Shown in pieces: positions 16,341-38,415 of a stretch of 64,000 bases of DNA. The notes beneath the pieces were generated by a model that was not told the origin of the DNA, did no database searches, and saw only the letters and a program-made list of their open reading frames with translations. Origin of the DNA: Aplysia californica (Eukaryota); the NCBI RefSeq assembly GCF_000002075.1, contig NW_004798005.1, forward strand, positions 266,099-330,098. The letters are read 5' to 3'. Both the position numbers and the translations under genes were made by a program. How positions within the stretch are numbered: position 1 is the stretch's first letter; each line of letters opens with the position of its first letter.

Positions 16341-16553
16341 GTTCTTAAGCTTTGTAGATGGTGGGGTAAAAATATTATGCTCAAAAAGAAAATAATAGAT
16401 AGTCTCAAATCAGCAGTCGTGAAAGAAGAACAAAATGCATATTGGCAAGGAATTATATAAAATGTACATAGGAAGTATTAAAAAGTCGAAAGGAGTAAAC
16501 AAAAGTGACAATGAACTGTAGTTCGTTTTTTTCTTCATGCACATGTACTGATA

Positions 16554-16560
16554 TCATCAC

Positions 16561-16636
<76 letters not shown>
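16554..16636. repeat. (CAT)n microsatellite
   Basis: Directly visible. Homologous tracts at 29170-29250 and 57178-57255. Confidence 0.95.
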
Positions 16637-16637
<1 letters not shown>

Positions 16638-17860
16638 ATCTCATCAATACCTCTTTCGACCTGAATCAGGGTATAAGTCACAAATAAATGCTTCTTTGTT
16701 TCCCTTATGTCGTGCTAGCTTCTATCTCGGGCTAGATCTAGAATGAAACAGCCGATTTAATAGAAAAAGAAACATCTCGATCAGAACAGCCTGAAAAAAG
16801 GACAAATTATGAGCGTACTTGGAGGTTAAATCTGTCATCAAATTATGACCAGACGCAATGTTATAGCCACCCTGACCCCTACTACCTTTGCTCCCGTCAA
16901 AATCAGGTTGTTCTTTTCAGACTCAGAGCAGGAAAAGACATCATCTCTACACATAGTTTAGGATCGGCAACTTATAACAGTGTTTATGCGAAACCGTCAG
17001 CCAAACAGCAAATCATAAAAGCGAGAGAGCCACTAGACGCCAGAATCCTTCTGTTTTCTTAAATATCACGTGGGATCCCACTGTACTGGACAAATAATTT
17101 ATTATCTGTCTTATCTATATTTGTTGGAGATTTAAAGTCAAACAAAAATTCTCCTAACAGAAATCACAAAGAAACAAAAAAATATTTAGAAACAACCAAA
17201 CAAAAGAAAACCAAAGGACATGTCGGAAAAATTCTCCTGATGTCCGTTTTCAATTATGAATCAATTAAGTTTTACATGTTACCTCTCGCAAAACACATGG
17301 AAAGCGTCAACTTTCGACTTTCGTTTATTTCCGTTGTCTACCTCTGCTGGACAAAATAATATGATATTTATGGTAGATTTAAATCGTATTTTACAACAAA
17401 AGAATTGAACCTGGTGTTCAGATAATAAAGTGCACGGGGAGTACCGATTTGATTTACTACGTAGGTCACATCCGGTTTAATGGCGGCTGAGGTCAGTCGC
17501 TGTTTCTTAGCTCCTGTGTTATCGGTGATTTTGATACGGATTTCAGTGGAGAAAAGTGGTTGTAAGTGGTGGTAAGAGGTATCATTCGTATACTCAAGTA
17601 AGTTTTGATATTTTTGTTGTAATTTGTGCACTGTATACTGTCTTTTCTACTGTCTGCATAATTTTTTCTTCTCAGTGAACCTTGCTTCGAGCACGGTTTC
17701 ATTGTTGTTTTTTCTATTCCTTCTCGCCTGGCTATCGCGCTGTGTTTTTTTCACTCCCTATCTCACTCTTACTCTTACTTGTTCTTTTCTGTATCCTGAT
17801 ATTACAGTTTCCTTGTTTTAATCATTCTTCTTAGGAATAACCGTCTACTGCTAAGTGAAC

Positions 17861-18804
17861 ATGATGGCAAAAAATAACAGTGAATCTGTCCCAGCCTGTT
17901 TTTTCTTTGCAGAGCATATTGACCGCTCTGTCACAGGCTACCAAATATGTAAGGCCTGTGAGCAAGTTGTCGGCGAGGGAAGTATTATCGGAGCCCAAAA
18001 GCTCTATGGACTGTGGAGGATATACCCTGCTACGGTTCAGGCAAGAAACCAACTAATCATTAAGGGCATCATAATTAACAAAATGTTTGTCGCTATCCTC
18101 AGCGCCAGCCCGACGGTGACGAAAGGAACCAAGGACTCCCCCACATTGAAAGTCATCATTGGTAACATACCGTTGTCAGTGTCCAATGATGAAATAGGAA
18201 AAGAGTTTAAGAAACTAGAGGGAGTGGCCATTCTTTCAAAGTTTTATGAAGAATGTTATAGGGACAACGAAGGAAAGTTGACCTTGTTTAAATCTGGTAG
18301 ACGTTTTGTCTACATTAATGTCCCCCCTCACCCTCTCCCCAAAGATTTTCAGGTTGGACACTGGAGGCCAACGTTGTATCACTACGGCCAGAAAGAAAAA
18401 AAAGAGACGATGGGACCAATACAACCGGTGGAGATCAGCCCGCCCCCGACACCAATGTTCAAGCGACAATCCGTGAGGCTAACGCTGACACACAGGCGGA
18501 GACACAGGCAGAGACACACACCCTGCGTGCTGTAAGGCAAACAAATATGGACTCTTTTTTCCCGCAGCCTGACCGCTCCCGCCCCCCAGTACGCTCACCC
18601 CGAAGCCAGGACACAAGGTCTCCAAGTGTCAAGACGAGGAGACATAAAAGACAGGTGAGCGACGAGCCAGCTCGGTCACCGAGCGTGAAAGCTCGAAAAC
18701 AGGAGGTGAGTGGCACGAGAAAAAGGCAAGATACGGTAGATTATTTTGATTATGAGGAGCCAGTGACTACCGAAACGTGTGAGCACGAAGAGGTCGGTGC
18801 GTGA
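17861..18804 (+). CDS. Tx1-like ORF1 (RNA-binding), interrupted by a -1 frameshift near 18396-18403
   Basis: Frame 1 gives GAQKLYGLWRIYP...KVIIGNIPLSVSNDEI...SGRRFVYI...YHYGQK. The -1 frame is open from the A8 run to TGA at 18804 and is RS-rich. The joined product is about 314 aa. Confidence 0.8.
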
Positions 18805-18891
18805 GTGGTGTGTCCACGTTTCGGTAGCCATTGGTAACGACTTGGACAGGTAAAAGGACTTTGAGTTTGGTTTTGCGTCTGACTGTTTTGG

Positions 18892-21800
18892 ATGTCTATA
18901 AAAATTGCCTCCCTTAATTGTCGGGGCCTCAACAAAAAACTAAAAAGAAGAGCAATATTCCGTAAATGTACACAGTATGACATAATTTGTTTGCAAGAGA
19001 CTTATGTCACCAATACTACTGCACGTGAGTGGAGTTTAGAATGGTCTGGGGATTTCTTTTATAGTGAAGGGACAAACAAAAGCAAAGGGCAAATTATATT
19101 AGTTAATAAACACTTTAAGTATAAAACAGTGGAATTATGTATAAAAACTGAGAGAATACTTGGGTTGTCTTTCAGTATTGATGATGTTTCATACGTAGCA
19201 ATTAATGTATATGGTCCAGTAGTTAAAAATGATAAATTGGATTTCATTGATAAGCTCTACTCTGTTCTTAAAGATGAAAAGGCAGACCACACGATCATAT
19301 GTGGAGATTTCAATGTTGTTCATAACAATACCCTTGATATTGTGACAGGAGAGAAACACGACGACATGTCCACACAAAAATTCAGGGACTGGATCGCCAA
19401 CTGTCAGATCGTTGATACCTGGCGGGGTGTGCACGGTGAAGAAAAGGATTTCACCTGGTCCAGGCCTACACCCTTTACAGCACGGCGGCTGGACTACATA
19501 TTTTGTAATACTAAGTTATTTCCCTTTGTTATAGACTCTAAACACACATTTGTATATGGTACGGATCATAAAGCAGTCATAACTACTGTTCGAACTGAAC
19601 AATTTAAAAGGGGGCCTTCATACTGGAAATTTAATAATTCATTACTAAAAGACAAAGAGTACGTTAACTCAATGGAGAAATGCATAGACGAATATTTAGA
19701 ACGGACTTTAGATGAAACAGATAAAACCATAAGATGGGAACTTTTGAAAGTCATGATAAAGTCACATACAATTGACTATTGTATTAGAAAGTGCAGAGCA
19801 CTCAAACTAAGGGAAATTCTAATAACGGAAGAACTTTTGAAATTAAATGATCAAGTAGTGAAAACCCCCCATGACCTTACATTGCTTAAACAGTTTGAAG
19901 CCAAAAAGAAAGAATTAGAAATATATCAACTACATAAGGCCAGGGGAGCACAAATACGATCAAGACAAAAATGGATTGAGGAAGGGGAAAAGAATACGAA
20001 ATACTTTCTTCGGATGGAACAAATGAGAGGTGGTAGTAATGTTATAACTTCTTTACAGGATGACAAAAACAACAATCTGTATGGTCATGTAGATATTGTG
20101 GATAGCATTAAAAATCACTTTGAACGTTTATATAAGAAAGACCATAATATTGAAACAAACAAAGTTGATGATTTCATGCAAGGATGTAGCTTTCCAGTAC
20201 TCGATGATGTTGATAAAGAAATATGTGATAGCGAACTAAGCATTGTTGAATTAGATGCCATTGTTAATAAGTTGAATATTGATTCAGCACCTGGAATCGA
20301 TGGAATTACCACCCCTTTTTACAAATTTTTCTGGAGCAAACTGAGGAAACCTTTATTTACAAACTTCCAGCAGTGTCTAGAGACGGGAGAGTTATCTCCC
20401 ACTCAAAGAAGAGGCGTTATTTCTTTATTACATAAAGGGAAAAATTTACGAAGGGACAATATAAAGAACTGGAGACCGATAACGTTAACAAACACGGACT
20501 ACAAAATCTTCTCCAAAATATTAGCTATACGGCTACAGCGTGTTATGCCAATTTTAATAAATGAAAACCAAACTGGCTTCTTGAAAGGCAGGTCCATTTC
20601 GGAGCACATTAGGACACTTGACGACATTATCTACGTAGCATCTGAAAAAAATCTACCAGGTATGGTGGTATCTCTGGATTTTCAACGCGCATTCGACACT
20701 GTAGAAAAGGGAACAATATTGGCCACATTGAAAAAGTTTAACTTTGGAGAAGGATTTATAAATATGGTGGGAGTTTTAATGGCTAACACAGAATGTTGTG
20801 TACAAAATGGGGGATGGTTGTCAGAATGGCTCAACACAGAGCGAGGAATAAAACAAGGTTGCTGCACAAGTCCACTTCTTTTTGTACTTGTTGCTGAGTT
20901 GATGTCAATAAAGTTAAGAAACAATAGCAGCATATCTGGAATGAGCACAATTTTGTCAGGGGAAATAATTAATTTTTGCAAAGTTTTGCAGTATGCTGAT
21001 GACACCACTCTGATTCTAAAAGACCAAGAAGACCTTGCTTCAGCCTTGTTGGACATCGATTCTTTTGGTAGCATCTCTGGGCTCAGGCTGAACAAGGATA
21101 AATCACAAGGTATGTGGATTGGAAGTGATAGAACACGCACTGAAAAATTAGGAGGAATCAGTTGGGTCCCTAATGGGAATACAATTAAGATACTAGGTAT
21201 TCACTTTAGTGCAACAGAGGAAGCATCTCGCATAGAACTTAATTGGATAGACAAAATAGAAAATATGAAAAATATCATGAAAATGTGGATGAAAAGGAAT
21301 CCATCCCTATATGGGAAAGTAATTATTTGTAAAACCTTTCTGCTGTCTCAAATATCCTATATAATTCAGTCACTATCTTTACCCGAAAGAGTTTTGAATA
21401 CAATTGATACTTTGTTCTTTAAGTTTCTGTGGCAGAAGAGGCACTCAAACAAGAAAGCACGCGAGAAAGTAAAAAGAACGGTAATGTGTAGATCGATTGA
21501 GGAAGGAGGTTTGGGTGTTATAAGTGTTAAAGATCAACAGAAAGTTTTTCTATTAAATTGGTTAAAACGTATGGCAACTGTTACCGAAGGCAGACCCAAC
21601 AATATTCCCAACAGAATTTCAGACTTAGCTTTTACGGAGGTAGGAGGGTGTGATTACTTTTTTTCGGCTACAGCAAACTGCAAGAAAACGGGAAAATTGT
21701 GTCATGCCTCTAAGTTCTGGGAGAGTGTGATGGATACATGGATCGAAATGGCTTCTATAAAAAAAGAACCAAGCTCCACGATAGAGATACTTATGGAACC

Positions 21801-24800
21801 TTTGTTCAATAACCGAAACATAAAATATAAAGGAAAATCATTGTACCTAAAAAGATGGATGAACTCGGGTATAAAATATGTATATCATCTGTATGATAGG
21901 AGAATATTAAAAAGTAAGGAGGAATTGTCTCATATCACAGGGACATATGCTGCCTTTGATTTTGACTATTATGCGTTGATGAATGCTCTTCCTACACAGT
22001 GGAAGCAAGACGTCAGTGACAACAACACCGAGGAACTTTTGGTAAATACCAGAGAGGTAATAAATACGAATGGTAAGAAAACTGTTCTAGAGATACTGAG
22101 CAAATCGAACAGAGAGATCAGACAACTTCTAAAATACAGAAGACATGCAGAAATTTGTGGTCGGAATTTTTGGATGAGAAAAATGAACATTGACATAACA
22201 TGTAAATACAACATAGCACACAGGTCAACGAAAGAATCTCGACTTAGATTATTGCATTTTAAAATCCTCCATAACATCTTCCCAAGTAACATTCTACTCA
22301 ATCGCCTAGGCATTAAAAATACTGAACTATGTGAGCACTGTGGTGTCAAAGACGTTATTGAGCACATGTTTATTCATTGTACCTTATTAAAAAACTTCTG
22401 GAAATACGTATTTCATACGATTTGTCTCAAAACTTCCTCCCGTTTTCCCATGACTGACTGTAACATACTTTTTGGTTTCAGTGAACGAGGGCAAGAGTGG
22501 AGTTTAGAATGGTCTGGGGATTTCTTTTATAGTGAAGGGACAAACAAAAGCAAAGGGCAAATTATATTAGTTAATAAACACTTTAAGTATAAAACAGTGG
22601 AATTATGTATAAAAACTGAGAGAATACTTGGGTTGTCTTTCAGTATTGATGATGTTTCATACGTAGCAATTAATGTATATGGTCCAGTAGTTAAAAATGA
22701 TAAATTGGATTTCATTGATAAGCTCTACTCTGTTCTTAAAGATGAAAAGGCAGACCACACGATCATATGTGGAGATTTCAATGTTGTTCATAACAATACC
22801 CTTGATATTGTGACAGGAGAGAAACACGACGACATGTCCACACAAAAATTCAGGGACTGGATCGCCAACTGTCAGATCGTTGATACCTGGCGGGGTGTGC
22901 ACGGTGAAGAAAAGGATTTCACCTGGTCCAGGCCTACACCCTTTACAGCACGGCGGCTGGACTACATATTTTGTAATACTAAGTTATTTCCCTTTGTTAT
23001 AGACTCTAAACACACATTTGTATATGGTACGGATCATAAAGCAGTCATAACTACTGTTCGAACTGAACAATTTAAAAGGGGGCCTTCATACTGGAAATTT
23101 AATAATTCATTACTAAAAGACAAAGAGTACGTTAACTCAATGGAGAAATGCATAGACGAATATTTAGAACGGACTTTAGATGAAACAGATAAAACCATAA
23201 GATGGGAACTTTTGAAAGTCATGATAAAGTCACATACAATTGACTATTGTATTAGAAAGTGCAGAGCACTCAAACTAAGGGAAATTCTAATAACGGAAGA
23301 ACTTTTGAAATTAAATGATCAAGTAGTGAAAACCCCCCATGACCTTACATTGCTTAAACAGTTTGAAGCCAAAAAGAAAGAATTAGAAATATATCAACTA
23401 CATAAGGCCAGGGGAGCACAAATACGATCAAGACAAAAATGGATTGAGGAAGGGGAAAAGAATACGAAATACTTTCTTCGGATGGAACAAATGAGAGGTG
23501 GTAGTAATGTTATAACTTCTTTACAGGATGACAAAAACAACAATCTGTATGGTCATGTAGATATTGTGGATAGCATTAAAAATCACTTTGAACGTTTATA
23601 TAAGAAAGACCATAATATTGAAACAAACAAAGTTGATGATTTCATGCAAGGATGTAGCTTTCCAGTACTCGATGATGTTGATAAAGAAATATGTGATAGC
23701 GAACTAAGCATTGTTGAATTAGATGCCATTGTTAATAAGTTGAATATTGATTCAGCACCTGGAATCGATGGAATTACCACCCCTTTTTACAAATTTTTCT
23801 GGAGCAAACTGAGGAAACCTTTATTTACAAACTTCCAGCAGTGTCTAGAGACGGGAGAGTTATCTCCCACTCAAAGAAGAGGCGTTATTTCTTTATTACA
23901 TAAAGGGAAAAATTTACGAAGGGACAATATAAAGAACTGGAGACCGATAACGTTAACAAACACGGACTACAAAATCTTCTCCAAAATATTAGCTATACGG
24001 CTACAGCGTGTTATGCCAATTTTAATAAATGAAAACCAAACTGGCTTCTTGAAAGGCAGGTCCATTTCGGAGCACATTAGGACACTTGACGACATTATCT
24101 ACGTAGCATCTGAAAAAAATCTACCAGGTATGGTGGTATCTCTGGATTTTCAACGCGCATTCGACACTGTAGAAAAGGGAACAATATTGGCCACATTGAA
24201 AAAGTTTAACTTTGGAGAAGGATTTATAAATATGGTGGGAGTTTTAATGGCTAACACAGAATGTTGTGTACAAAATGGGGGATGGTTGTCAGAATGGCTC
24301 AACACAGAGCGAGGAATAAAACAAGGTTGCTGCACAAGTCCACTTCTTTTTGTACTTGTTGCTGAGTTGATGTCAATAAAGTTAAGAAACAATAGCAGCA
24401 TATCTGGAATGAGCACAATTTTGTCAGGGGAAATAATTAATTTTTGCAAAGTTTTGCAGTATGCTGATGACACCACTCTGATTCTAAAAGACCAAGAAGA
24501 CCTTGCTTCAGCCTTGTTGGACATCGATTCTTTTGGTAGCATCTCTGGGCTCAGGCTGAACAAGGATAAATCACAAGGTATGTGGATTGGAAGTGATAGA
24601 ACACGCACTGAAAAATTAGGAGGAATCAGTTGGGTCCCTAATGGGAATACAATTAAGATACTAGGTATTCACTTTAGTGCAACAGAGGAAGCATCTCGCA
24701 TAGAACTTAATTGGATAGACAAAATAGAAAATATGAAAAATATCATGAAAATGTGGATGAAAAGGAATCCATCCCTATATGGGAAAGTAATTATTTGTAA

Positions 24801-26109
24801 AACCTTTCTGCTGTCTCAAATATCCTATATAATTCAGTCACTATCTTTACCCGAAAGAGTTTTGAATACAATTGATACTTTGTTCTTTAAGTTTCTGTGG
24901 CAGAAGAGGCACTCAAACAAGAAAGCACGCGAGAAAGTAAAAAGAACGGTAATGTGTAGATCGATTGAGGAAGGAGGTTTGGGTGTTATAAGTGTTAAAG
25001 ATCAACAGAAAGTTTTTCTATTAAATTGGTTAAAACGTATGGCAACTGTTACCGAAGGCAGACCCAACAATATTCCCAACAGAATTTCAGACTTAGCTTT
25101 TACGGAGGTAGGAGGGTGTGATTACTTTTTTTCGGCTACAGCAAACTGCAAGAAAACGGGAAAATTGTGTCATGCCTCTAAGTTCTGGGAGAGTGTGATG
25201 GATACATGGATCGAAATGGCTTCTATAAAAAAAGAACCAAGCTCCACGATAGAGATACTTATGGAACCTTTGTTCAATAACCGAAACATAAAATATAAAG
25301 GAAAATCATTGTACCTAAAAAGATGGATGAACTCGGGTATAAAATATGTATATCATCTGTATGATAGGAGAATATTAAAAAGTAAGGAGGAATTGTCTCA
25401 TATCACAGGGACATATGCTGCCTTTGATTTTGACTATTATGCGTTGATGAATGCTCTTCCTACACAGTGGAAGCAAGACGTCAGTGACAACAACACCGAG
25501 GAACTTTTGGTAAATACCAGAGAGGTAATAAATACGAATGGTAAGAAAACTGTTCTAGAGATACTGAGCAAATCGAACAGAGAGATCAGACAACTTCTAA
25601 AATACAGAAGACATGCAGAAATTTGTGGTCGGAATTTTTGGATGAGAAAAATGAACATTGACATAACATGTAAATACAACATAGCACACAGGTCAACGAA
25701 AGAATCTCGACTTAGATTATTGCATTTTAAAATCCTCCATAACATCTTCCCAAGTAACATTCTTCTCAATCGCCTAGGCATTAAAAATACTGAACTATGT
25801 GAGCACTGTGGTGTCAAAGACGTTATTGAGCACATGTTTATTCATTGTACCTTATTAAAAAACTTCTGGAAATACGTATTTCATACGATTTGTCTCAAAA
25901 CTTCCTCCCGTTTTCCCATGACTGACTGTAACATACTTTTTGGTTTCAGTGAACGAGGGCAAGGTGTAACAGAAGCCCAGTTAAACATCGCTAACCACAT
26001 TCTTTTGATCGCAAAGATGTGTGTTAGCAAGTTACGCTACAGCAAAGCGACAAATATACAAATCTTGTTTGAATCGGAGCTGGAGCTGAGAGAAAGTAGG
26101 TGGTCGTAA
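18892..26109 (+). CDS. Tx1-like ORF2 with tandem duplication: APE endonuclease-RT-CCHC fused to truncated EN-RT-CCHC (2405 aa)
   Basis: EN motifs SLNCRGL, CLQET, GDFN, RLDYIF, TDH. RT motifs NWRPITL, LDFQRAFD, QGCCTSP, YADD. Zinc finger CEHC..HMFIHC. Unit 19027-22494 is repeated at 22495-25962. Confidence 0.93.
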   Translation: MSIKIASLNCRGLNKKLKRRAIFRKCTQYDIICLQETYVTNTTAREWSLEWSGDFFYSEGTNKSKGQIILVNKHFKYKTVELCIKTERILGLSFSIDDVSYVAINVYGPVVKNDKLDFIDKLYSVLKDEKADHTIICGDFNVVHNNTLDIVTGEKHDDMSTQKFRDWIANCQIVDTWRGVHGEEKDFTWSRPTPFTARRLDYIFCNTKLFPFVIDSKHTFVYGTDHKAVITTVRTEQFKRGPSYWKFNNSLLKDKEYVNSMEKCIDEYLERTLDETDKTIRWELLKVMIKSHTIDYCIRKCRALKLREILITEELLKLNDQVVKTPHDLTLLKQFEAKKKELEIYQLHKARGAQIRSRQKWIEEGEKNTKYFLRMEQMRGGSNVITSLQDDKNNNLYGHVDIVDSIKNHFERLYKKDHNIETNKVDDFMQGCSFPVLDDVDKEICDSELSIVELDAIVNKLNIDSAPGIDGITTPFYKFFWSKLRKPLFTNFQQCLETGELSPTQRRGVISLLHKGKNLRRDNIKNWRPITLTNTDYKIFSKILAIRLQRVMPILINENQTGFLKGRSISEHIRTLDDIIYVASEKNLPGMVVSLDFQRAFDTVEKGTILATLKKFNFGEGFINMVGVLMANTECCVQNGGWLSEWLNTERGIKQGCCTSPLLFVLVAELMSIKLRNNSSISGMSTILSGEIINFCKVLQYADDTTLILKDQEDLASALLDIDSFGSISGLRLNKDKSQGMWIGSDRTRTEKLGGISWVPNGNTIKILGIHFSATEEASRIELNWIDKIENMKNIMKMWMKRNPSLYGKVIICKTFLLSQISYIIQSLSLPERVLNTIDTLFFKFLWQKRHSNKKAREKVKRTVMCRSIEEGGLGVISVKDQQKVFLLNWLKRMATVTEGRPNNIPNRISDLAFTEVGGCDYFFSATANCKKTGKLCHASKFWESVMDTWIEMASIKKEPSSTIEILMEPLFNNRNIKYKGKSLYLKRWMNSGIKYVYHLYDRRILKSKEELSHITGTYAAFDFDYYALMNALPTQWKQDVSDNNTEELLVNTREVINTNGKKTVLEILSKSNREIRQLLKYRRHAEICGRNFWMRKMNIDITCKYNIAHRSTKESRLRLLHFKILHNIFPSNILLNRLGIKNTELCEHCGVKDVIEHMFIHCTLLKNFWKYVFHTICLKTSSRFPMTDCNILFGFSERGQEWSLEWSGDFFYSEGTNKSKGQIILVNKHFKYKTVELCIKTERILGLSFSIDDVSYVAINVYGPVVKNDKLDFIDKLYSVLKDEKADHTIICGDFNVVHNNTLDIVTGEKHDDMSTQKFRDWIANCQIVDTWRGVHGEEKDFTWSRPTPFTARRLDYIFCNTKLFPFVIDSKHTFVYGTDHKAVITTVRTEQFKRGPSYWKFNNSLLKDKEYVNSMEKCIDEYLERTLDETDKTIRWELLKVMIKSHTIDYCIRKCRALKLREILITEELLKLNDQVVKTPHDLTLLKQFEAKKKELEIYQLHKARGAQIRSRQKWIEEGEKNTKYFLRMEQMRGGSNVITSLQDDKNNNLYGHVDIVDSIKNHFERLYKKDHNIETNKVDDFMQGCSFPVLDDVDKEICDSELSIVELDAIVNKLNIDSAPGIDGITTPFYKFFWSKLRKPLFTNFQQCLETGELSPTQRRGVISLLHKGKNLRRDNIKNWRPITLTNTDYKIFSKILAIRLQRVMPILINENQTGFLKGRSISEHIRTLDDIIYVASEKNLPGMVVSLDFQRAFDTVEKGTILATLKKFNFGEGFINMVGVLMANTECCVQNGGWLSEWLNTERGIKQGCCTSPLLFVLVAELMSIKLRNNSSISGMSTILSGEIINFCKVLQYADDTTLILKDQEDLASALLDIDSFGSISGLRLNKDKSQGMWIGSDRTRTEKLGGISWVPNGNTIKILGIHFSATEEASRIELNWIDKIENMKNIMKMWMKRNPSLYGKVIICKTFLLSQISYIIQSLSLPERVLNTIDTLFFKFLWQKRHSNKKAREKVKRTVMCRSIEEGGLGVISVKDQQKVFLLNWLKRMATVTEGRPNNIPNRISDLAFTEVGGCDYFFSATANCKKTGKLCHASKFWESVMDTWIEMASIKKEPSSTIEILMEPLFNNRNIKYKGKSLYLKRWMNSGIKYVYHLYDRRILKSKEELSHITGTYAAFDFDYYALMNALPTQWKQDVSDNNTEELLVNTREVINTNGKKTVLEILSKSNREIRQLLKYRRHAEICGRNFWMRKMNIDITCKYNIAHRSTKESRLRLLHFKILHNIFPSNILLNRLGIKNTELCEHCGVKDVIEHMFIHCTLLKNFWKYVFHTICLKTSSRFPMTDCNILFGFSERGQGVTEAQLNIANHILLIAKMCVSKLRYSKATNIQILFESELELRESRWS

Positions 26110-27044
26110 AGCTCATCGATAGCACCTGCGGTGGTAAGATAAAATATATATATATATAAATATCCTGTTTCCAGCAGCTCATATCTGAAAGAAACGGATG
26201 GGAAAAGTGTGGTTTTACTTTTTTTTAAATATTAAAAAAATATCTATATACTTTTCTGGCAGTATATTGCATGATAACATTGTTCAATACCCCATTAGAC
26301 AAAGTTAACGGACGCCTTATGTTTGGGAGAAAAGATGGCCAGTCTCTATAGTATAACCATTCCCTCAGCACCCTACTCATCATAATAATAATGTTNNNNN
26401 NNNNNNNNNNNNNNNNNNNNNNNNNNNNNNNNNNNNNNNNNNNNNNNNNNNNNNNNNNNNNNNNNNNNNNNNNNNNNNNNNNNNNNNNNNNNNNNNNNNN
26501 NNNNNNNNNNNNNNNNNNNNNNNNNNNNNNNNNNNNNNNNNNNNNNNNNNNNNNNNNNNNNNTCTTACTTTCCTTTTCCCTCCCTACCTCCCTCCCTTTC
26601 TCCTGTTCCTCTCTCTATTTCTTTCCTTTTCCCTCCCTACCTCCCTCCCTTTCNNNNNNNNNNNNNNNNNNNNNNNNNNNNNNNNNNNNNNNNNNNNNNN
26701 NNNNNNNNNNNNNNNNNNNNNNNNNNNNNNNNNNNNNNNNNNNNNNNNNNNNNNNNNNNNNNNNNNNNNNNNNNNNNNNNNNNNNNNNNNNNNNNNNNNN
26801 NNNNNNNNNNNNNNNNNNNNNNNNNNNNNNNNNNNNNNNNNNNNNNNNNNNNNNNNNNNNNNNNNNNNNNNNNNNNNNNNNNNNNNNNNNNNNNNNNNNN
26901 NNNNNNNNNNNNNNNCTGTCAGTACTAGATCTATATGTTATTATCTAGATTTAGCTGGTAGCATATACACAGTTAATGATTTGTCAAATTTAAGATTCAT
27001 TTTCAAACGTCATTTTGGAAATTACACAAATGTATGACGAGACC

Positions 27045-27176
27045 GTGTAGATGCAGACACAGGGTGCTTGATTGGGGAGTTTGAGGCCGCTCCCCCCGAG
27101 GCGAGGGGATACAATATTGTGTGTAAATTGTTCCCTCTCGACTCGGGTTCGAGGATCCTGTGTCGGAATCTCCGCA
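27045..27176 (+). other. Predicted Y-shaped RNA structure in the LINE 3' UTR (copy at about 36191-36322)
   Basis: GACACAGGGT-G-CTTGA pairs with TCGAG-G-ATCCTGTGTC and encloses hairpins GGGGAG/CTCCCC and CCGAG-CGAGGGGA-ACAAT/ATTGT-TCCCTCTCG-CTCGG. Paired by eye. Confidence 0.6.
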
Positions 27177-28724
27177 ACTTCATATATAAATAAGTATAAA
27201 GTCTTTAACCCAATTGTGAATTGCTGCCTGCAAACCCCTTACGAAACCCCAAAAATAATCTCTACCACTGTACTAGCTACCTACTAAGGTCCTCTCTTCA
27301 CTTGTCTTGGTCCGCTAGAATAGGCTAATACTAACAAGGTCACCATAGCAGAGACTGTGCCCACCATTTCGGAACTTCACGGTGACATTAAAGATGGTTC
27401 CAGTAGGGAACGGGATAGCGGGTGCCCACATCCCTCGTGACTCATCAGAGCAGAGGAAGATAGGACTAACGCTAACATTATTTTTTTTTAAACAACAACA
27501 ATCAAATAACAGAAGCATGTTTTCTTATAATTATAAACGTAAGCACCATCCCACATCATCACTTACCACCACCATCACCGTCATTTCTAAGGTCATCATT
27601 GCTCTCAGATCCTTCACAAACATCTATAATTATCTTAAACATCTATATGTAACAGTTATATGTCATAACAAATTTGTACGTTATACATTATTGGGCACTC
27701 TCATACGCACATTTTTCTACTAATCAGATGGCGTCAATATCATAGACATGGGCAAGGGACCAAAAAAAAAAAAAAGATTTACTACGTAGGTGTCTTGTAG
27801 ACAAAGAAGATAAACCTTTTTCTTCATTTTCAGCAGCCAGTTCTCGTGTTTTTGGGATGGATTTGCGGGTTGGGATGGGAGTGGGTGTGAGGAGGTGTTA
27901 ATTACTGGTTTCACCCCATTCATTTAGACAAGTCTTGAACACTGCAACTAGTTAGTGTAAAAGAAATAGTTACTCTTGTAATTGCTTTTGGTAATGAAAA
28001 GGTAGACTTGTGAGTTATTGTAACTGATGAAATATAATATCTGTCTTAAAAAATTAGTCGAAGTCACCCCTTAATTTAACAGTGACAAATGTTAGTTTCT
28101 TTTGTACCACTCGAAAAGCAAAGCAGATATTCATATAAGAAACCTTTTACGAGCAAAGAAAAAGAATAATTTCGAGTTACGAGTAGACAAAAAATTTATA
28201 TAGAATTACTTTGTTCATAAACCCGCACTCTAACACATCTATAATTGTCGCTAAGAACAGACATACTGTTACAGAGACTGTAAAGCACATTATTATAGCT
28301 TGCCTTTCGGGTGGAATTTGGGCTAAACAATAATTGCTAGGGAACATGTCATAATAATAATATATCATAGTATAAAAAAAATAATTGGCCAGATAAACGT
28401 AGACTGAAACCGTCACTTTGAAGAAAACTGTAATTTGTTCTTAAAACGTGGAAAGCTGAACAAAGCCAGGCGAAACACTGATGTAAATAAGGCAAGTTGA
28501 GCGTCTCAGACAACATTCTTTCTGTATTTCTTTTTTATTATTGAAGGGACACCTTCAACAATGAAGTGAAGCATATCTGTGAGCATCATACCATTCCAGG
28601 CCTTCCTGGTCTTTGTTTATTTTGAATTGTGCAATTGAGAAAAAAAGCTATACTAGTAAATAAACATTATGTGCGTAAAAAACCCGTAGAAATAGACTCA
28701 TCCTAAGCTCCCCAACTGCATAAG

Positions 28725-28977
28725 ATGGTATCGTCCACGTCTGGAACAATTAACCATGTCACTTTCTCTTCGAATGAGAATACGATGGAGGCCATGACGT
28801 CTTCTTCCGTTAAGTTTGTACCTTTTCTCAGTAATGAAGAGCGGGGAGCCATAGCAATACTGAACTTCGTGGTCATCTGTGGACTTGTCAGTTTGATGGG
28901 CATTGTAGCCAACGTCATCAATATAGTGGTATTTGCGAAGCTTGGGTTCCAAGACTCCATGAATATAAGTCTTACCG
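28725..28977 (+). pseudogene. Orphan GPCR exon 1 (probable allelic duplicate of gene 3 exon 1)
   Basis: Nearly identical to 37868-38120 (one S/P change seen). Intact donor, but followed after 30 nt by the 100-N gap and no exons 2-3. Confidence 0.75.
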
Positions 28978-29007: not shown

Positions 29008-29107
29008 NNNNNNNNNNNNNNNNNNNNNNNNNNNNNNNNNNNNNNNNNNNNNNNNNNNNNNNNNNNNNNNNNNNNNNNNNNNNNNNNNNNNNNNNNNNNN
29101 NNNNNNN
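29008..29107. other. Scaffold gap (exactly 100 N) between the two near-identical blocks
   Basis: 100-N run at the junction of block copies A and B. Confidence 0.85.
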
Positions 29108-29177
29108 AAACAAAAGTGACAATGAACTGTAGTTCGTTTTTTTCTTCATGCACATGTACTGATATCAATATCATCAC

Positions 29178-29251
<74 letters not shown>

Positions 29252-30474
29252 ATCTCATCAATACCTCTTTCGACCTGAATCAGGGTATAAGTCACAAATA
29301 AATGCTTCTTTGTTTCCCTTATGTCGTGCTAGCTTCTATCTCGGGCTAGATCTAGAATGAAACAGCCGATTTAATAGAAAAAGAAACATCTCGATCAGAA
29401 CAGCCTGAAAAAAGGACAAATTATGAGCGTACTTGGAGGTTAAATCTGTCATCAAATTATGACCAGACGCAATGTTATAGCCATCCTGACCCCTACTACC
29501 TTTGCTCCCGTCAAAATCAGGTTGTTCTTTTCAGACTCAGAGCAGGAAAAGACATCATCTCTACACATAGTTTAGGATCGGCAACTTATAACAGTGTTTA
29601 TGCGAAACCGTCAGCCAAACAGCAAATCATAAAAGCGAGAGAGCCACTAGACGCCAGAATCCTTCTGTTTTCTTAAATATCACGTGGGATCCCACTGTAC
29701 TGGACAAATAATTTATTATCTGTCTTATCTATATTTGTTGGAGATTTAAAGTCAAACAAAAATTCTCCTAACAGAAATCACAAAGAAACAAAAAAAAATT
29801 TAGAAACAACCAAACAAAAGAAAACCAAAGGACACGTCGAAAAAATTCTCCTGATGTCCGTTTTCAATTAGGAATCAATTAAGTTTTACATGTTACCTCT
29901 CGCAAAACACATGGAAAGCGTCAACTTTCGACTTTCGTTTATTTCCGTTGTCTACCTCTGCTGGACAAAATAATATGATATTTATGGTAGATTTAAATCG
30001 TATTTTACAACAAAAGAATTGAACCTGGTGTTCAGATAATAAAGTGCACGGGGAGTACCGATTTGATTTACTACGTAGGTCACATCCGGTTTAATGGCGG
30101 CTGAGGTCAGTCGCTGTTTCTTAGCTCCTGTGTTATCGGTGATTTTGATACGGATTTCAGTGGAGAAAAGTGGTTGTAAGTGGTGGTAAGAGGTATCATT
30201 CGTATACTCAAGTAAGTTTTGATATTTTTGTTGTAATTTGTGCACTGTATACTGTCTTTTCTACTGTCTGCATAATTTTTTCTTCTCAGTGAACCTTGCT
30301 TCGAGCACGGTTTCATTGTTGTTTTTTCTATTCCTTCTCGCCTGGCTATCGCGCTGTGTTTTTTTCACTCCCTATCTCACTCTTACTCTTACTTGTTCTT
30401 TTCTGTATCCTGATATTACAGTTTCCTTGTTTTAATCATTCTTCTTAGGAATAACCGTCTACTGCTAAGTGAAC

Positions 30475-31418
30475 ATGATGGCAAAAAATAACAGTGAATC
30501 TGTCCCAGCCTGTTTTTTCTTTGCAGAGCATATTGACCGCTCTGTCACAGGCTACCAAATATGTAAGGCCTGTGAGCAAGTTGCCGGCGAGGGAAGTATT
30601 ATCGGAGCCCAAAAGCTCTATGGACTGTGGAGGATATACCCTGCTACGGTTCAGGCAAGAAACCAACTAATCATTAAGGGCATCATAATTAACAAAATGT
30701 TTGTCGCTATCCTCAGCGCCAGCCCGACGGTGACGAAAGGAACCAAGGACTCCCCCACATTGAAAGTCATCATTGGTAACATACCGTTGTCAGTGTCCAA
30801 TGATGAAATAGGAAAAGAGTTTAAGAAACTAGAGGGAGTGGCCATTCTTTCAAAGTTTTATGAAGAATGTTATAGGGACAACGAAGGAAAGTTGACCTTG
30901 TTTAAATCTGGTAGACGTTTTGTCTACATTAATGTCCCCCCTCACCCTCTCCCCAAAGATTTTCAGGTTGGACACTGGAGGCCAACGTTGTATCACTACG
31001 GCCAGAAAGAAAAAAAAGAGACGATGGGACCAATACAACCGGTGGAGATCAGCCCGCCCCCGACACCAATGTTCAAGCGACAATCCGTGAGGCTAACGCT
31101 GACACACAGGCGGAGACACAGGCAGAGACACACACCCTGCGTGCTGTAAGGCAAACAAATATGGACTCTTTTTTCCCGCAGCCTGACCGCTCCCGCCCCC
31201 CAGTACGCTCACCCCGAAGCCAGGACACAAGGTCTCCAAGTGTCAAGACGAGGAGACATAAAAGACAGGTGAGCGACGAGCCAGCTCGGTCACCGAGCGT
31301 GAAAGCTCGAAAACAGGAGGTGAGTGGCACGAGAAAAAGGCAAGATACGGTAGATTATTTTGATTATGAGGAGCCAGTGACTACCGAAACGTGTGAGCAC
31401 GAAGAGGTCGGTGCGTGA
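30475..31418 (+). CDS. Tx1-like ORF1, copy B (same frameshift)
   Basis: Matches copy A except V>A in EQVVGE/EQVAGE. Same A8 run at 31010-31017. Confidence 0.8.
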
Positions 31419-31505
31419 GTGGTGTGTCCACGTTTCGGTAGCCATTGGTAACGACTTGGACAGGTAAAAGGACTTTGAGTTTGGTTTTGCGTCTGACTGT
31501 TTTGG

Positions 31506-34500
31506 ATGTCTATAAAAATTGCCTCCCTTAATTGTCGGGGCCTCAACAAAAAACTAAAAAGAAGAGCAATATTCCGTAAATGTACACAGTATGACATAAT
31601 TTGTTTGCAAGAGACTTATGTCACCAATACTACTGCACGTGAGTGGAGTTTAGAATGGTCTGGGGATTTCTTTTATAGTGAAGGGACAAACAAAAGCAAA
31701 GGGCAAATTATATTAGTTAATAAACACTTTAAGTATAAAACAGTGGAATTATGTATAAAAACTGAGAGAATACTTGGGTTGTCTTTCAGTATTGATGATG
31801 TTTCATACGTAGCAATTAATGTATATGGTCCAGTAGTTAAAAATGATAAATTGGATTTCATTGATAAGCTCTACTCTGTTCTTAAAGATGAAAAGGCAGA
31901 CCACACGATCATATGTGGAGATTTCAATGTTGTTCATAACAATACCCTTGATATTGTGACAGGAGAGAAACACGACGACATGTCCACACAAAAATTCAGG
32001 GACTGGATCGCCAACTGTCAGATCGTTGATACCTGGCGGGGTGTGCACGGTGAAGAAAAGGATTTCACCTGGTCCAGGCCTACACCCTTTACAGCACGGC
32101 GGCTGGACTACATATTTTGTAATACTAAGTTATTTCCCTTTGTTATAGACTCTAAACACACATTTGTATATGGTACGGATCATAAAGCAGTCATAACTAC
32201 TGTTCGAACTGAACAATTTAAAAGGGGGCCTTCATACTGGAAATTTAATAATTCATTACTAAAAGACAAAGAGTACGTTAACTCAATGGAGAAATGCATA
32301 GACGAATATTTAGAACGGACTTTAGATGAAACAGATAAAACCATAAGATGGGAACTTTTGAAAGTCATGATAAAGTCACATACAATTGACTATTGTATTA
32401 GAAAGTGCAGAGCACTCAAACTAAGGGAAATTCTAATAACGGAAGAACTTTTGAAATTAAATGATCAAGTAGTGAAAACCCCCATGACCTTACATTGCTT
32501 AAACAGTTTGAAGCCAAAAAGAAAGAATTAGAAATATATCAACTACATAAGGCCAGGGGAGCACAAATACGATCAAGACAAAAATGGATTGAGGAAGGGG
32601 AAAAGAATACGAAATACTTTCTTCGGATGGAACAAATGAGAGGTGGTAGTAATGTTATAACTTCTTTACAGGATGACAAAAACAACAATCTGTATGGTCA
32701 TGTAGATATTGTGGATAGCATTAAAAATCACTTTGAACGTTTATATAAGAAAGACCATAATATTGAAACAAACAAAGTTGATGATTTCATGCAAGGATGT
32801 AGCTTTCCAGTACTCGATGATGTTGATAAAGAAATATGTGATAGCGAACTAAGCATTGTTGAATTAGATGCCATTGTTAATAAGTTGAATATTGATTCAG
32901 CACCTGGAATCGATGGAATTACCACCCCTTTTTACAAATTTTTCTGGAGCAAACTGAGGAAACCTTTATTTACAAACTTCCAGCAGTGTCTAGAGACGGG
33001 AGAGTTATCTCCCACTCAAAGAAGAGGCGTTATTTCTTTATTACATAAAGGGAAAAATTTACGAAGGGACAATATAAAGAACTGGAGACCGATAACGTTA
33101 ACAAACACGGACTACAAAATCTTCTCCAAAATATTAGCTATACGGCTACAGCGTGTTATGCCAATTTTAATAAATGAAAACCAAACTGGCTTCTTGAAAG
33201 GCAGGTCCATTTCGGAGCACATTAGGACACTTGACGACATTATCTACGTAGCATCTGAAAAAAATCTACCAGGTATGGTGGTATCTCTGGATTTTCAACG
33301 CGCATTCGACACTGTAGAAAAGGGAACAATATTGGCCACATTGAAAAAGTTTAACTTTGGAGAAGGATTTATAAATATGGTGGGAGTTTTAATGGCTAAC
33401 ACAGAATGTTGTGTACAAAATGGGGGATGGTTGTCAGAATGGCTCAACACAGAGCGAGGAATAAAACAAGGTTGCTGCACAAGTCCACTTCTTTTTGTAC
33501 TTGTTGCTGAGTTGATGTCAATAAAGTTAAGAAACAATAGCAGCATATCTGGAATGAGCACAATTTTGTCAGGGGAAATAATTAATTTTTGCAAAGTTTT
33601 GCAGTATGCTGATGACACCACTCTGATTCTAAAAGACCAAGAAGACCTTGCTTCAGCCTTGTTGGACATCGATTCTTTTGGTAGCATCTCTGGGCTCAGG
33701 CTGAACAAGGATAAATCACAAGGTATGTGGATTGGAAGTGATAGAACACGCACTGAAAAATTAGGAGGAATCAGTTGGGTCCCTAATGGGAATACAATTA
33801 AGATACTAGGTATTCACTTTAGTGCAACAGAGGAAGCATCTCGCATAGAACTTAATTGGATAGACAAAATAGAAAATATGAAAAATATCATGAAAATGTG
33901 GATGAAAAGGAATCCATCCCTATATGGGAAAGTAATTATTTGTAAAACCTTTCTGCTGTCTCAAATATCCTATATAATTCAGTCACTATCTTTACCCGAA
34001 AGAGTTTTGAATACAATTGATACTTTGTTCTTTAAGTTTCTGTGGCAGAAGAGGCACTCAAACAAGAAAGCACGCGAGAAAGTAAAAAGAACGGTAATGT
34101 GTAGATCGATTGAGGAAGGAGGTTTGGGTGTTATAAGTGTTAAAGATCAACAGAAAGTTTTTCTATTAAATTGGTTAAAACGTATGGCAACTGTTACCGA
34201 AGGCAGACCCAACAATATTCCCAACAGAATTTCAGACTTAGCTTTTACGGAGGTAGGAGGGTGTGATTACTTTTTTTCGGCTACAGCAAACTGCAAGAAA
34301 ACGGGAAAATTGTGTCATGCCTCTAAGTTCTGGGAGAGTGTGATGGATACATGGATCGAAATGGCTTCTATAAAAAAAGAACCAAGCTCCACGATAGAGA
34401 TACTTATGGAACCTTTGTTCAATAACCGAAACATAAAATATAAAGGAAAATCATTGTACCTAAAAAGATGGATGAACTCGGGTATAAAATATGTATATCA

Positions 34501-35254
34501 TCTGTATGATAGGAGAATATTAAAAAGTAAGGAGGAATTGTCTCATATCACAGGGACATATGCTGCCTTTGATTTTGACTATTATGCGTTGATGAATGCT
34601 CTTCCTACACAGTGGAAGCAAGACGTCAGTGACAACAACACCGAGGAACTTTTGGTAAATACCAGAGAGGTAATAAATACGAATGGTAAGAAAACTGTTC
34701 TAGAGATACTGAGCAAATCGAACAGAGAGATCAGACAACTTCTAAAATACAGAAGACATGCAGAAATTTGTGGTCGGAATTTTTGGATGAGAAAAATGAA
34801 CATTGACATAACATGTAAATACAACATAGCACACAGGTCAACGAAAGAATCTCGACTTAGATTATTGCATTTTAAAATCCTCCATAACATCTTCCCAAGT
34901 AACATTCTTCTCAATCGCCTAGGCATTAAAAATACTGAACTATGTGAGCACTGTGGTGTCAAAGACGTTATTGAGCACATGTTTATTCATTGTACCTTAT
35001 TAAAAAACTTCTGGAAATACGTATTTCATACGATTTGTCTCAAAACTTCCTCCCGTTTTCCCATGACTGACTGTAACATACTTTTTGGTTTCAGTGAACG
35101 AGGGCAAGGTGTAACAGAAGCCCAGTTAAACATCGCTAACCACATTCTTTTGATCGCAAAGATGTGTGTTAGCAAGTTACGCTACAGCAAAGCGACAAAT
35201 ATACAAATCTTGTTTGAATCGGAGCTGGAGCTGAGAGAAAGTAGGTGGTCGTAA
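31506..35254 (+). pseudogene. Tx1-like ORF2 (EN-RT-CCHC, about 1249 aa) split by a 1-bp deletion
   Basis: C5 at 32479-32483 versus C6 in both repeats of copy A splits it into 341-aa and 919-aa ORFs. May be a homopolymer sequencing error. Confidence 0.88.
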
Positions 35255-37867
35255 AGCTCATCGATAGCACCTGCGGTGGTAAGATAAAATATATATATAT
35301 ATATAAATATCCTGTTTCCAGCAGCTCATATCTGAAAGAAACGGATGGGAAAAGTGTGGTTTTACTTTTTTTTAAAATTAAAAAAATATCTATATACTTT
35401 TCTGGCAGTATATTGCATGATAACATTGTTCAATACCCCATTAGACAAAGTTAACGGACGCCTTATGTTTGGGAGAAAAGATGGCCAGTCTCTATAGTAT
35501 AACCATTCCCTCAGCACCCTACTCATCATAATAATAATGTTNNNNNNNNNNNNNNNNNNNNNNNNNNNNNNNNNNNNNNNNNNNNNNNNNNNNNNNNNNN
35601 NNNNNNNNNNNNNNNNNNNNNNNNNNNNNNNNNNNNNNNNNNNNNNNNNNNNNNNNNNNNNNNNNNNNNNNNNNNNNNNNNNNNNNNNNNNNNNNNNNNN
35701 NNNNNNNNTCTTACTTTCCTTTTCCCTCCCTACCTCCCTCCCTTTCTCCTGTTCCTCTCTCTATTTCTTTCCTTTTCCCTCCCTACCTCCCTCCCTTTCN
35801 NNNNNNNNNNNNNNNNNNNNNNNNNNNNNNNNNNNNNNNNNNNNNNNNNNNNNNNNNNNNNNNNNNNNNNNNNNNNNNNNNNNNNNNNNNNNNNNNNNNN
35901 NNNNNNNNNNNNNNNNNNNNNNNNNNNNNNNNNNNNNNNNNNNNNNNNNNNNNNNNNNNNNNNNNNNNNNNNNNNNNNNNNNNNNNNNNNNNNNNNNNNN
36001 NNNNNNNNNNNNNNNNNNNNNNNNNNNNNNNNNNNNNNNNNNNNNNNNNNNNNNNNNNNNNCTGTCAGTACTAGATCTATATGTTATTATCTAGATTTAG
36101 CTGGTAGCATATACACAGTTAATGATTTGTCAAATTTAAGATTCATTTTCAAACGTCATTTTGGAAATTACACAAATGTATGACGAGACCGTGTAGATGC
36201 AGACACAGGGTGCTTGATTGGGGAGTTTGAGGCCGCTCCCCCCGAGGCGAGGGGATACAATATTGTGTGTAAATTGTTCCCTCTCGACTCGGGTTCGAGG
36301 ATCCTGTGTCGGAATCTCCGCAACTTCATATATAAATAAGTATAAAGTCTTTAACCCAATTGTGAATTGCTGCCTGCAAACCCCTTACGAAACCCCAAAA
36401 ATAATCTCTACCACTGTACTAGCTACCTACTAAGGTCCTCTCTTCACTTGTCTTGGTCCGCTAGAATAGGCTAATACTAACAAGGTCACCATAGCAGAGA
36501 CTGTGCCCACCATTTCGGAACTTCACGGTGACATTAAAGATGGTTCCAGTAGGGAACGGGATAGCGGGTGCCCACATCCCTCGTGACTCATCAGAGCAGA
36601 GGAAGATAGGACTAACGCTAACATTATTTTTTTTTAAACAACAACAATCAAATAACAGAAGCATGTTTTCTTATAATTATAAACGTAAGCACCATCCCAC
36701 ATCATCACTTACCACCACCATCACCGTCATTTCTAAGGTCATCATTGCTCTCAGATCCTTCACAAACATCTATAATTATCTTAAACATCTATATGTAACA
36801 GTTATATGTCATAACAAATTTGTACGTTATACATTATTGGGCACTCTCATACGCACATTTTTCTACTAATCAGATGGCGTCAATATCATAGACATGGGCA
36901 AGGGACCAAAAAAAAAAAAAGATTTACTACGTAGGTGTCTTGTAGACAAAGAAGATAAACCTTTTTCTTCATTTTCAGCAGCCAGTTCTCGTGTTTTTGG
37001 GATGGATTTGCGGGTTGGGATGGGAGTGGGTGTGAGGAGGTGTTAATTACTGGTTTCACCCCATTCATTTAAACAAGTCTTGAACACTGCAACTAGTTAG
37101 TGTAAAAGAAATAGTTACTCTTGTAATTGCTTTTGGTAATGAAAAGGTAGACTTGTGAGTTATTGTAACTGATGAAATATAATATCTGTCTTAAAAAATT
37201 AGTCGAAGTCACCCCTTAATTTAACAGTGACAAATGTTAGTTTCTTTTGTACCACTCGAAAAGCAAAGCAGATATTCATATAAGAAACCTTTTACGAGCA
37301 AAGAATAATTTCGAGTTACGAGTAGACAAAACATTTATATAGAATTACTTTGTTCATAAACCCGCACTCTAACACATCTATAATTGTCGCTAAGAACAGA
37401 CATACTGTTACAGAGACTGTAAAGCACATTATTATAGCTTGCCTTTCGGGTGGAATTTGGGCTAAACAATAATTGCTAGGGAACATGTCATAATAATAAT
37501 ATATCATAGTATAAAAAAAATAATTGGCCAGATAAACGTAGACTGAAACCGTCACTTTGAAGAAAACTGTAATTTGTTCTTAAAACGTGGAAAGCTGAAC
37601 AAAGCCAGGCGAAACACTGATGTAAATAAGGCAAGTTGAGCGTCTCAGACAACATTCTTTCTGTATTTCTTTTTTATTATTGAAGGGACACCTTCAACAA
37701 TGAAGTGAAGCATATCTGTGAGCATCATACCATTCCAGGCCTTCCTGGTCTTTGTTTATTTTGAATTGTGCAATTGAGAAAAAAAGCTATACTAGTAAAT
37801 AAACATTATGTGCGTAAAAAACCCGTGCGTAGAAATAGACTCATCCTAAGCTCCCCTACAGCATAAG

Positions 37868-38120
37868 ATGGTATCGTCCACGTCTGGAACAATTAACCAT
37901 GTCACTTTCTCTTCGAATGAGAATACGATGGAGGCCATGACGCCTTCTTCCGTTAAGTTTGTACCTTTTCTCAGTAATGAAGAGCGGGGAGCCATAGCAA
38001 TACTGAACTTCGTGGTCATCTGTGGACTTGTCAGTTTGATGGGCATTGTAGCCAACGTCATCAATATAGTGGTATTTGCGAAGCTTGGGTTCCAAGACTC
38101 CATGAATATAAGTCTTACCG
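37868..38120 (+). CDS. Chemosensory-type GPCR gene 3, exon 1
   Basis: MVSSTSGTINHVTF...GIVANVINIVVFAKLGFQDSMNISLTG, phase-1 donor G|GTGAGA. Confidence 0.9.
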
Positions 38121-38415
38121 GTGAGAATGATATGATAGAGTGGCTTGAAACCTCCAAATCTAGATACATCNNNNNNNNNNNNNNNNNNNNNNNNNNNNNN
38201 NNNNNNNNNNNNNNNNNNNNNNNNNNNNNNNNNNNNNNNNNNNNNNNNNNNNNNNNNNNNNNNNNNNNNNNNNNNNNNNNNNNNNNNNNNNNNNNNNNNN
38301 NNNNNNNNNNNNNNNNNNNNNNNNNNNNNATCACACACATAGATACTAATACATACGAAGCACCTTCAAGTGTCTTGCTCAGTTCCATCTTTAATTTCTT
38401 TCTGATATTACTTCA

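What the first reader, a model, noticed from the sequence alone, without database searches (positions are those of the whole stretch)
18892..26109. LINE ORF2 with two complete reverse transcriptases in one 2405-aa open frame
Seen: a 3468-bp (1156-codon) unit, 19027-22494, is repeated head-to-tail at 22495-25962. The junction GGGCAA|GAGTGG has only 1 nt of microhomology and keeps the frame. The product is EN-RT-CCHC fused to a second EN lacking its first 45 aa, then RT-CCHC and the normal C-terminus. I noticed one difference between the repeats (synonymous CTA/CTT at 22296); the comparison was not exhaustive. Established: the lost residues include the catalytic Asn and Glu of APE endonucleases (SLN, QET), so the second EN should be dead. 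Inference: if real, this is a covalent RT dimer with one nuclease, an unusual ORF2p architecture, and the only open ORF2 at this locus. Frame preservation has a 1-in-3 chance, so selection is not shown. An assembly artefact is a serious alternative.
Basis: partly seen in the sequence, partly recalled or inferred. Interest (0 to 1): 0.7.

Follow-up and report, generated by a model that had tools for sequence, protein, structure and literature searches.

The report
Doubled LINE gene, likely assembly error
A young jumping gene (LINE) appears here with most of its enzyme gene written twice in a row, but the same insertion is assembled a second time next door with a single copy and no sequencing contig crosses the join, so the doubling is likely an assembly error, or at most a one-off variant, and not a new kind of element.

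Summary
In detail: a 2405-codon frame, a 3468-bp unit twice, one difference. It lies in a full-length L1-group LINE (17467-27775, 16-bp target duplication). The whole locus is assembled again after a 100-N run (29108-38150) with the same target duplication, the same ORF1 frameshift and one ORF2. Flank depth is single-locus (ratio 0.82-1.14; 0.9 expected for alleles, 1.8 for true copies), so these are two alleles laid in tandem. The junction occurs once in the 927-Mb assembly, and 0 of 47 contigs from four DNA runs bridge it. That test is weak: 0 of 13 single-copy variants inside this ~50-copy family were recovered. The interior looks filled from pooled family sequence: alleles differ at 2 sites where ~32 are expected, and the one repeat difference is a family polymorphism. 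So the open frame says nothing about selection. Verdict: probably an assembly artefact (~0.68); a real private variant remains possible (~0.28); a working double-RT element is unlikely (~0.04).

The parts
17451..17466 (+). 5' target-site duplication, 16 bp (last base could belong to the element)
   Evidence: identical 16-mer at 17451, 27776, 30065, 36921
17467..27775 (+). full-length L1-group LINE, version A, with 5' UTR, ORF1, doubled ORF2, 1.7-kb 3' UTR and poly(A)
   Evidence: 5' and 3' ends shared with copies on other scaffolds
17864..18535 (+). ORF1, frameshifted near 18403 (223 aa; 313 aa in the C134 copy); same break in version B
   Evidence: family majority differs at 18403 in contigs
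18892..26109 (+). 2405-aa ORF2 frame: EN-RT-CCHC (1-1201) fused to residues 46-1249 of a second ORF2
19027..22494 (+). repeat unit 1 (A1), 3468 bp; carries the older-family base A at 22296
22495..25962 (+). repeat unit 2 (A2), 3468 bp; junction at 22494/22495 with 1 nt shared
   Evidence: unique in G000; bridged by 0 of 47 contigs
27776..27791 (+). 3' target-site duplication after the poly(A) tail
29008..29107 (.). run of exactly 100 N separating versions A and B; inferred to be a scaffold gap
   Evidence: 19 such runs on this scaffold, 4 with sequence repeated across them
29108..38150 (+). version B: second rendering of 16497-29007 with a single ORF2 (element 30081-36920; ORF2 broken at a C run near 32479); inferred to be the other allele
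28725..28977 (+). likely first coding exon (N-terminus and first membrane helix) of an Srw-type 7TM receptor gene downstream of the LINE; repeated at about 37868-38120 in version B, with only one second exon (41210-41890) for the two; exon limits inferred
   Evidence: translation and paralogy; second exon matches 7tm_1 and 7TM_GPCR_Srw; exon 1 alone has no receptor Pfam hit

Best explanation
The doubled ORF2 is likely an assembly artefact inside a young, roughly 50-copy L1-group LINE: the locus is assembled twice, likely once per allele, and one rendering likely took a wrong path back into the element. Shown: same target duplication and same ORF1 frameshift in both versions; single-locus depth of the flank; both flank alleles in one sample; one ORF2 in version B and in every other assembled copy that covers it. 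Inferred: the interiors were filled from pooled family sequence, so the open frame is the family's majority frame. Not shown: how the junction entered the assembly. With 1 nt shared it cannot be an ordinary repeat loop; it needs a chimeric library molecule (an unmarked mate-pair circle of 3468 bp would give exactly this head-to-tail join) or a butt-join of two overlapping pieces. The real element works as an ordinary EN-RT-CCHC LINE by target-primed reverse transcription (established knowledge; 14-16-bp target duplications and poly(A) seen here).
For: Versions A and B share the 16-bp target duplication and the ORF1 frameshift absent from the family majority. Flank contig depth over median single-locus depth is 0.98, 0.82, 1.14, 1.02 in four runs; 0.91 expected for alleles, 1.82 for real tandem copies. 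Sequence is repeated across 6 of 25 100-N runs examined on four scaffolds, once inside an old copy of this family. The junction occurs once in G000 (1 of 38 matches spans it). 0 of 47 contigs bridge it, and the main family contigs run straight through both would-be branch points. A and B differ at 10 of 2018 flank bases but 2 of 6396 element bases (p=2.5e-5; ~32 expected). The only A1/A2 difference is 1 of 16 old-versus-young diagnostic sites in the unit, i.e. a family polymorphism. Family depth is 23-62 times single-locus depth, and four other young 5' ends run into gaps or the contig end within 0.4-0.8 kb.
Against: The read test is weak: only contigs were available, they follow SPAdes-like graph simplification (PMC12424806, passages), and 0 of 13 single-copy variants known from the assembly inside this family show; even for eight low-depth variants that did show, the chance of missing one in all four runs is about 0.29. 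Sample S1 may not be the assembled individual. The junction has no homology, so something physical or a butt-join must have supplied it. A real heterozygous 3.5-kb variant is a classic reason for two alleles to stay unmerged. The A at 22296 lies 198 bp from the junction, within read-pair reach, which fits a junction molecule from one particular copy. No second gap-free head-to-tail duplication of 1 kb or more was found in about 617 kb scanned, so no pattern of such errors is shown.
Confidence: 0.68

Rival explanations
1. The junction is real on one allele and arose after insertion as a 3468-bp tandem duplication by non-homologous repair; it kept the frame by chance (1 in 3) and is neutral.
For: 1-nt junction fits end joining. 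A large heterozygous variant would explain why the two alleles were not merged over 9 kb, a far longer overlap than the 0.2-2.3 kb at other gaps. Contigs cannot exclude a half-depth edge between high-copy nodes.
Against: No bridging contig (0 of 47). A copy of one template should give identical units, yet the one difference is a family polymorphism; this needs pooled filling anyway. ORF1 of this copy is frameshifted. No descendant copy.
Confidence: 0.15
2. The junction is real and joins two different family members: a 5'-truncated copy starting at 19027 inserted into the resident copy at 22494 (with the second tail and leftover 1.8 kb collapsed by the assembler), or a template switch between two RNAs during reverse transcription.
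For: LINE 5' junctions are commonly direct joins or short microhomologies (PMC4245944, section 10 read). The two units differ at a site polymorphic in the family. The family is strongly 5'-truncated: depth rises from ~24 to ~57 single-locus units along the element.
Against: No poly(A)-tailed loose end and no record starting near 22478-22484 among the contigs listed. The family covers a tiny share of a 927-Mb genome, so a same-strand self-insertion is rare a priori (inference). Internal duplications reported for somatic L1 insertions come with 5' inversions and have a median of 22 bp (10.1101/2024.08.27.596794, passages).
Confidence: 0.13
3. The doubled frame is real, translated and useful: one active endonuclease tethered to two reverse transcriptases, which would let one chain make both cDNA strands or raise processivity.
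For: The frame is open over 2405 codons with both YADD and both CCHC motifs.
Against: Single occurrence; the other allele has one ORF2; ORF1 broken in cis; units 99.97% alike, so no time for selection to show; the first unit lacks its last 48 residues and the second endonuclease its first 45; none of the 120 listed best homologues exceeds 1277 aa, the 8 hits of 1343-1954 aa and the single 3989-aa hit match at most one ORF2 length.
Confidence: 0.04

Closest known systems
L1-group non-LTR retrotransposon ORF2p (human LINE-1 ORF2p, PDB 8uw3/8sxt; L1 clade including the Tx1 subgroup as described in PMC5203782)
   Same: N-terminal APE endonuclease, RT, C-terminal CCHC; best solved match E=4e-68 over residues 3-869; two ORFs, poly(A) tail, 14-16-bp target duplications, 5' truncation.
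   Different: ORF1 has no Pfam hit, neither Transposase_22 nor a zinc knuckle; 1.7-kb 3' UTR. No member with two RT units was found in the protein searches or in one literature search.
False heterotype duplication in scaffolds (Rhie et al., 10.1101/2020.05.22.110833; passages read)
   Same: Two diverged allele contigs placed in tandem with a gap between; both allele states present in one sample; single-locus depth.
   Different: It accounts for the A/B pair, not by itself for the gap-free 3468-bp repeat inside A.
Unmarked junction chimeras of Illumina mate-pair libraries (PMC3253782; passages read)
   Same: Self-ligation joins the two ends of a fragment of up to 5 kb with no linker, which gives a head-to-tail join without homology.
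   Different: That such a library fed this assembly, or that such a read made this junction, is not shown.
Internal duplications in somatic L1 insertions (10.1101/2024.08.27.596794; passages read)
   Same: LINE insertion can create internal duplications and template switches.
   Different: Those go with 5' inversions and have a median of 22 bp; here 3468 bp, direct, no inversion.

Membership tests
L1-group LINE | ORF2 with N-terminal APE endonuclease and RT | tested here: met
   Pfam Exo_endo_phos and RVT_1; human L1 ORF2p best PDB match, far above R2
L1-group LINE | C-terminal CCHC / zf-RVT region | tested here: met
   CX2CX7HX4C at 1147; zf-RVT hit, below the curated cut-off for a single unit (22.8 against 27.5 bits)
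L1-group LINE | poly(A) tail, variable target duplications near 15 bp, 5' truncation | tested here: met
   16 bp here, 14 bp in L031 and L033; depth gradient
L1-group LINE | ORF1 with Transposase_22 or RRM/zf-CCHC domains | tested here: inconclusive
   313-aa ORF1 upstream of ORF2, no Pfam family at E<=1; the Atlas look-up gave no result
Tx1 subgroup | RT phylogeny with named Tx1 elements | not tested
   no named Tx1 reference among the tool results; the Tx1 resemblance is recalled only
Tx1 subgroup | sequence-specific target (typical of many Tx1 families; recalled) | tested here: not met
   flanks of the copies examined are unrelated beyond a G-rich start after the poly(A)
False heterotype duplication (A/B pair) | near-identical copies in tandem around a gap | tested here: met
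   the 100-N run is inferred to be a gap
False heterotype duplication (A/B pair) | single-locus depth with both alleles present | tested here: met
   ratios 0.82-1.14; all 5 left-flank SNP alternatives seen in S1; S1 may or may not be the source
Misassembled junction (3468-bp repeat) | junction absent from raw reads of the source individual | tested here: inconclusive
Transposed double-RT LINE lineage | more than one insertion bearing the junction | tested here: not met
   1 match in G000; most young copies are unassembled inside, so this is a lower bound

The most novel reading that the evidence does not exclude
One allele carries a real, transcribed LINE whose ORF2 is a natural single-chain RT dimer (one endonuclease, two reverse transcriptases), made by a self-insertion or template switch: a ready-made test of whether tethering two ORF2 units changes second-strand synthesis or full-length insertion.
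Probability: 0.04. Interest if true: 0.6.

Novelty: not a real feature. Interest (0 to 1): 0.14.

Why it matters
If the artefact reading holds, it is a caution: in this assembly the inside of young repeats is not allele-resolved, so open frames and odd domain orders there cannot be taken at face value, and a receptor exon is falsely doubled too. If the junction is real it is a private variant of little consequence, unless it is expressed: then it would be a natural tethered ORF2 dimer, bearing on how many ORF2 units a LINE needs for second-strand synthesis.

Tried and rejected
Homologous or graph-loop origin: rejected, the breakpoints share 1 nt and no wider likeness. Real tandem duplication of the whole locus (A+B): rejected by depth. 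Empty allele in S1: not seen, flank contigs run into the element unbranched in 4 of 4 runs. Site-specific insertion: rejected. Only 4 of the 24 listed runs were laid, all from one sample. Search for other gap-free loops: none of 1 kb or more in about 617 kb, too little to give a rate. ESM Atlas gave no result for ORF1, ORF2 or a homologue, which leaves the Tx1 question open. Literature search for two/duplicated/tandem reverse transcriptase domains with LINE or non-LTR: 0 papers (one search, open-licence library only). A search on ORF2p dimer versus monomer listed 2 papers, seen as listing only. Earlier findings by place gave eight notes, none on this question; by sequence, none. No fold or complex was predicted: it could not decide whether the DNA exists.

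Full report
Observation. The frame 18892-26109 is open for 2405 aa. The unit 19027-22494 recurs at 22495-25962 with exactly one difference in 3468 bp, 22296 A against 25764 T. Pfam sees two stretches each of endonuclease, RT and zf-RVT. Unit 2 starts at residue 46, so it lacks N9 and E36, which align with the conserved asparagine and glutamate of the human L1 endonuclease; unit 1 lacks the last 48 residues of the normal 1249-aa protein. The breakpoints share one base and nothing more.

The element. It is a full-length LINE, 17467-27775, with a poly(A) tail and a 16-bp target duplication. Its single-ORF2 form is closest to human L1 ORF2p among solved structures (E=4e-68; R2 proteins E>=5e-26). 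A copy on C134 has ORF1 (313 aa) and ORF2 (1244 aa) both open. Target sites differ between copies. Contig depth is 23-25 single-locus units at the 5' end and 53-62 at the 3' end of ORF2, so the family has some tens of near-identical, mostly 5'-truncated copies. The assembly holds few of them whole: four other young 5' ends run into gaps or a contig end within 0.4-0.8 kb. Earlier AI notes call the genome a sea hare (not checked here). Whether the family is Tx1 was not tested.

The locus is written twice. 16497-29007 (A) recurs right after a run of 100 N as 29108-38150 (B). B has the same target duplication, one ORF2, and a one-base shortfall in a C run near 32479. A and B share a one-base ORF1 frameshift near 18403 that the family majority lacks, so they are one insertion. 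A has the upstream sequence and B the downstream sequence of one repeat of a 7TM receptor gene array; there are two first exons but one second exon. In sample S1 all five left-flank SNP alternatives appear, the flank runs unbranched into the element in 4 of 4 runs, and its depth is 0.82-1.14 of single-locus depth, against 0.91 expected for alleles and 1.82 for true tandem copies (the yardstick is 4-5 diverged single-locus contigs per run, assumed homozygous). Sequence is repeated across 6 of 25 100-N runs examined (4 of 19 on this scaffold, 1 of 2, 0 of 3, 1 of 1). This matches the false heterotype duplications described in 10.1101/2020.05.22.110833 (passages read).

The junction in other data. 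It occurs once in G000; 1 of 38 matches to a 200-bp probe spans it. Laid on 22445-22545, 47 contigs of runs X1-X4 matched (10, 12, 12, 13); 32 were listed, the longest laid piece was 52 letters, a bridge would be at least 59, and depth does not change between 22521-24 and 22525-28 where a junction piece would end. The main family contigs continue past 22495 into the normal 3' sequence and reach 22495 from the normal 5' sequence. Against this: the contigs are simplified after SPAdes-like rules (PMC12424806, passages). Of 13 single-copy variants known from the assembly (5 substitutions and a 15-bp deletion of L031, 5 substitutions of L033, T17970 of A, the short C run of B) none shows. For 8 low-depth variants picked from tables 3-4 (one contig, depth 50 or less) retention was about 0.27 per run, so a miss in all four has a chance near 0.29. 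Single-copy junctions into unique flanks did survive. The negative result therefore moves the odds only modestly, and S1 is one sample that may or may not be the source.

The interior is not allele-resolved. A and B differ at 10 of 2018 flank bases and 2 of 6396 element bases (p=2.5e-5); about 32 would be expected at the flank rate. Other young copies carry 0.13-0.28% private changes against B. The simplest reading (inference) is that the inside of both versions was filled from pooled family sequence. The single difference between the repeats is 1 of 16 sites in the unit that separate young from old copies; A1 has the old base there and the young base at the other 15; in X4 only 632 of 998 depth carries T at that site. 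It is a family polymorphism, not a fresh mutation. The open 2405-codon frame is then the family's majority frame twice over and says nothing on selection.

Mechanism. Most likely (0.68) the assembler rendered the locus once per allele and one path jumped from 22494 back to 19027. Without homology this needs a chimeric molecule or a butt-join; unmarked self-ligation junctions of mate-pair libraries of up to 5 kb are a known source (PMC3253782, passages), but their role here is not shown, and no second such loop was found in about 617 kb. A real variant on one allele remains possible: a post-insertion duplication (0.15), or a nested 5'-truncated copy or template switch (0.13); LINE 5' junctions are often direct or microhomologous (PMC4245944, abstract and section 10), while reported internal duplications of L1 are short and tied to inversions (10.1101/2024.08.27.596794, passages). 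A working double-RT element (0.04) has nothing for it beyond the open frame: ORF1 is broken in cis, there is no daughter copy, and protein searches gave 120 listed best relatives of 770-1277 aa out of 352, 8 hits of 1343-1954 aa and one weak 3989-aa hit, the last two searches being weak evidence by the tool's own account. One literature search found no paper on doubled RT domains in LINEs. PMC5203782 (passages) was used for L1/Tx1 definitions. No supplements were read.

Verdict. Observation confirmed; as biology probably not a real feature. The underlying family is an ordinary young L1-group LINE. Interest 0.14.

Noticed in passing
window 168-465 and 4020-4757; 12342-13474; 28725-28977; 37868-38120 and 41210-41890; 59605-59934; further paralogous blocks on G000:C735 at 186-265 kb: Tandem array of two-exon 7TM receptor genes (7tm_1 / Srw-type). 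The exon-1 copy in version A is likely an allelic false duplicate, so gene counts here would be inflated.
   Followed up: partly
L031 (G000:C134:1258529-1265100): Full-length family copy with ORF1 (313 aa) and ORF2 (1244 aa) both open and a 14-bp target duplication; has a 15-bp in-frame deletion in ORF2 and a deletion of about 120 bp in the 3' UTR; the 15-bp one is not seen in S1 contigs.
   Followed up: partly
L041 (G000:C542:459088-462389): 1.6 kb of an old family copy is written on both sides of a 100-N run, the same kind of overlap as A/B.
   Followed up: yes
window 16497-17466 and 27792-29007 against B: A young insertion sits on two haplotypes whose flanks differ by 0.5%, the nearest SNPs 210 and 135 bp away, with no empty allele in S1. 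Explained here by pooled filling of the interior; transfer of the insertion between homologues by gene conversion is not excluded.
   Followed up: partly
G000:C735:74732-77634: 789-bp direct repeat at 99.5% around 1.3 kb of other sequence, just after a 100-N run; could be a small LTR-type element or another assembly overlap.
   Followed up: no
G000:C3:779110-792050 (L035, L036): Two family copies 10 kb apart, 96% alike, with different flanks: separate insertions, not alleles.
   Followed up: partly
window 13740-16629 and 54328-57255: Decayed stretch with fragments that look like another non-LTR element's RT, shared by two repeats of the receptor array (77% alike).
   Followed up: no
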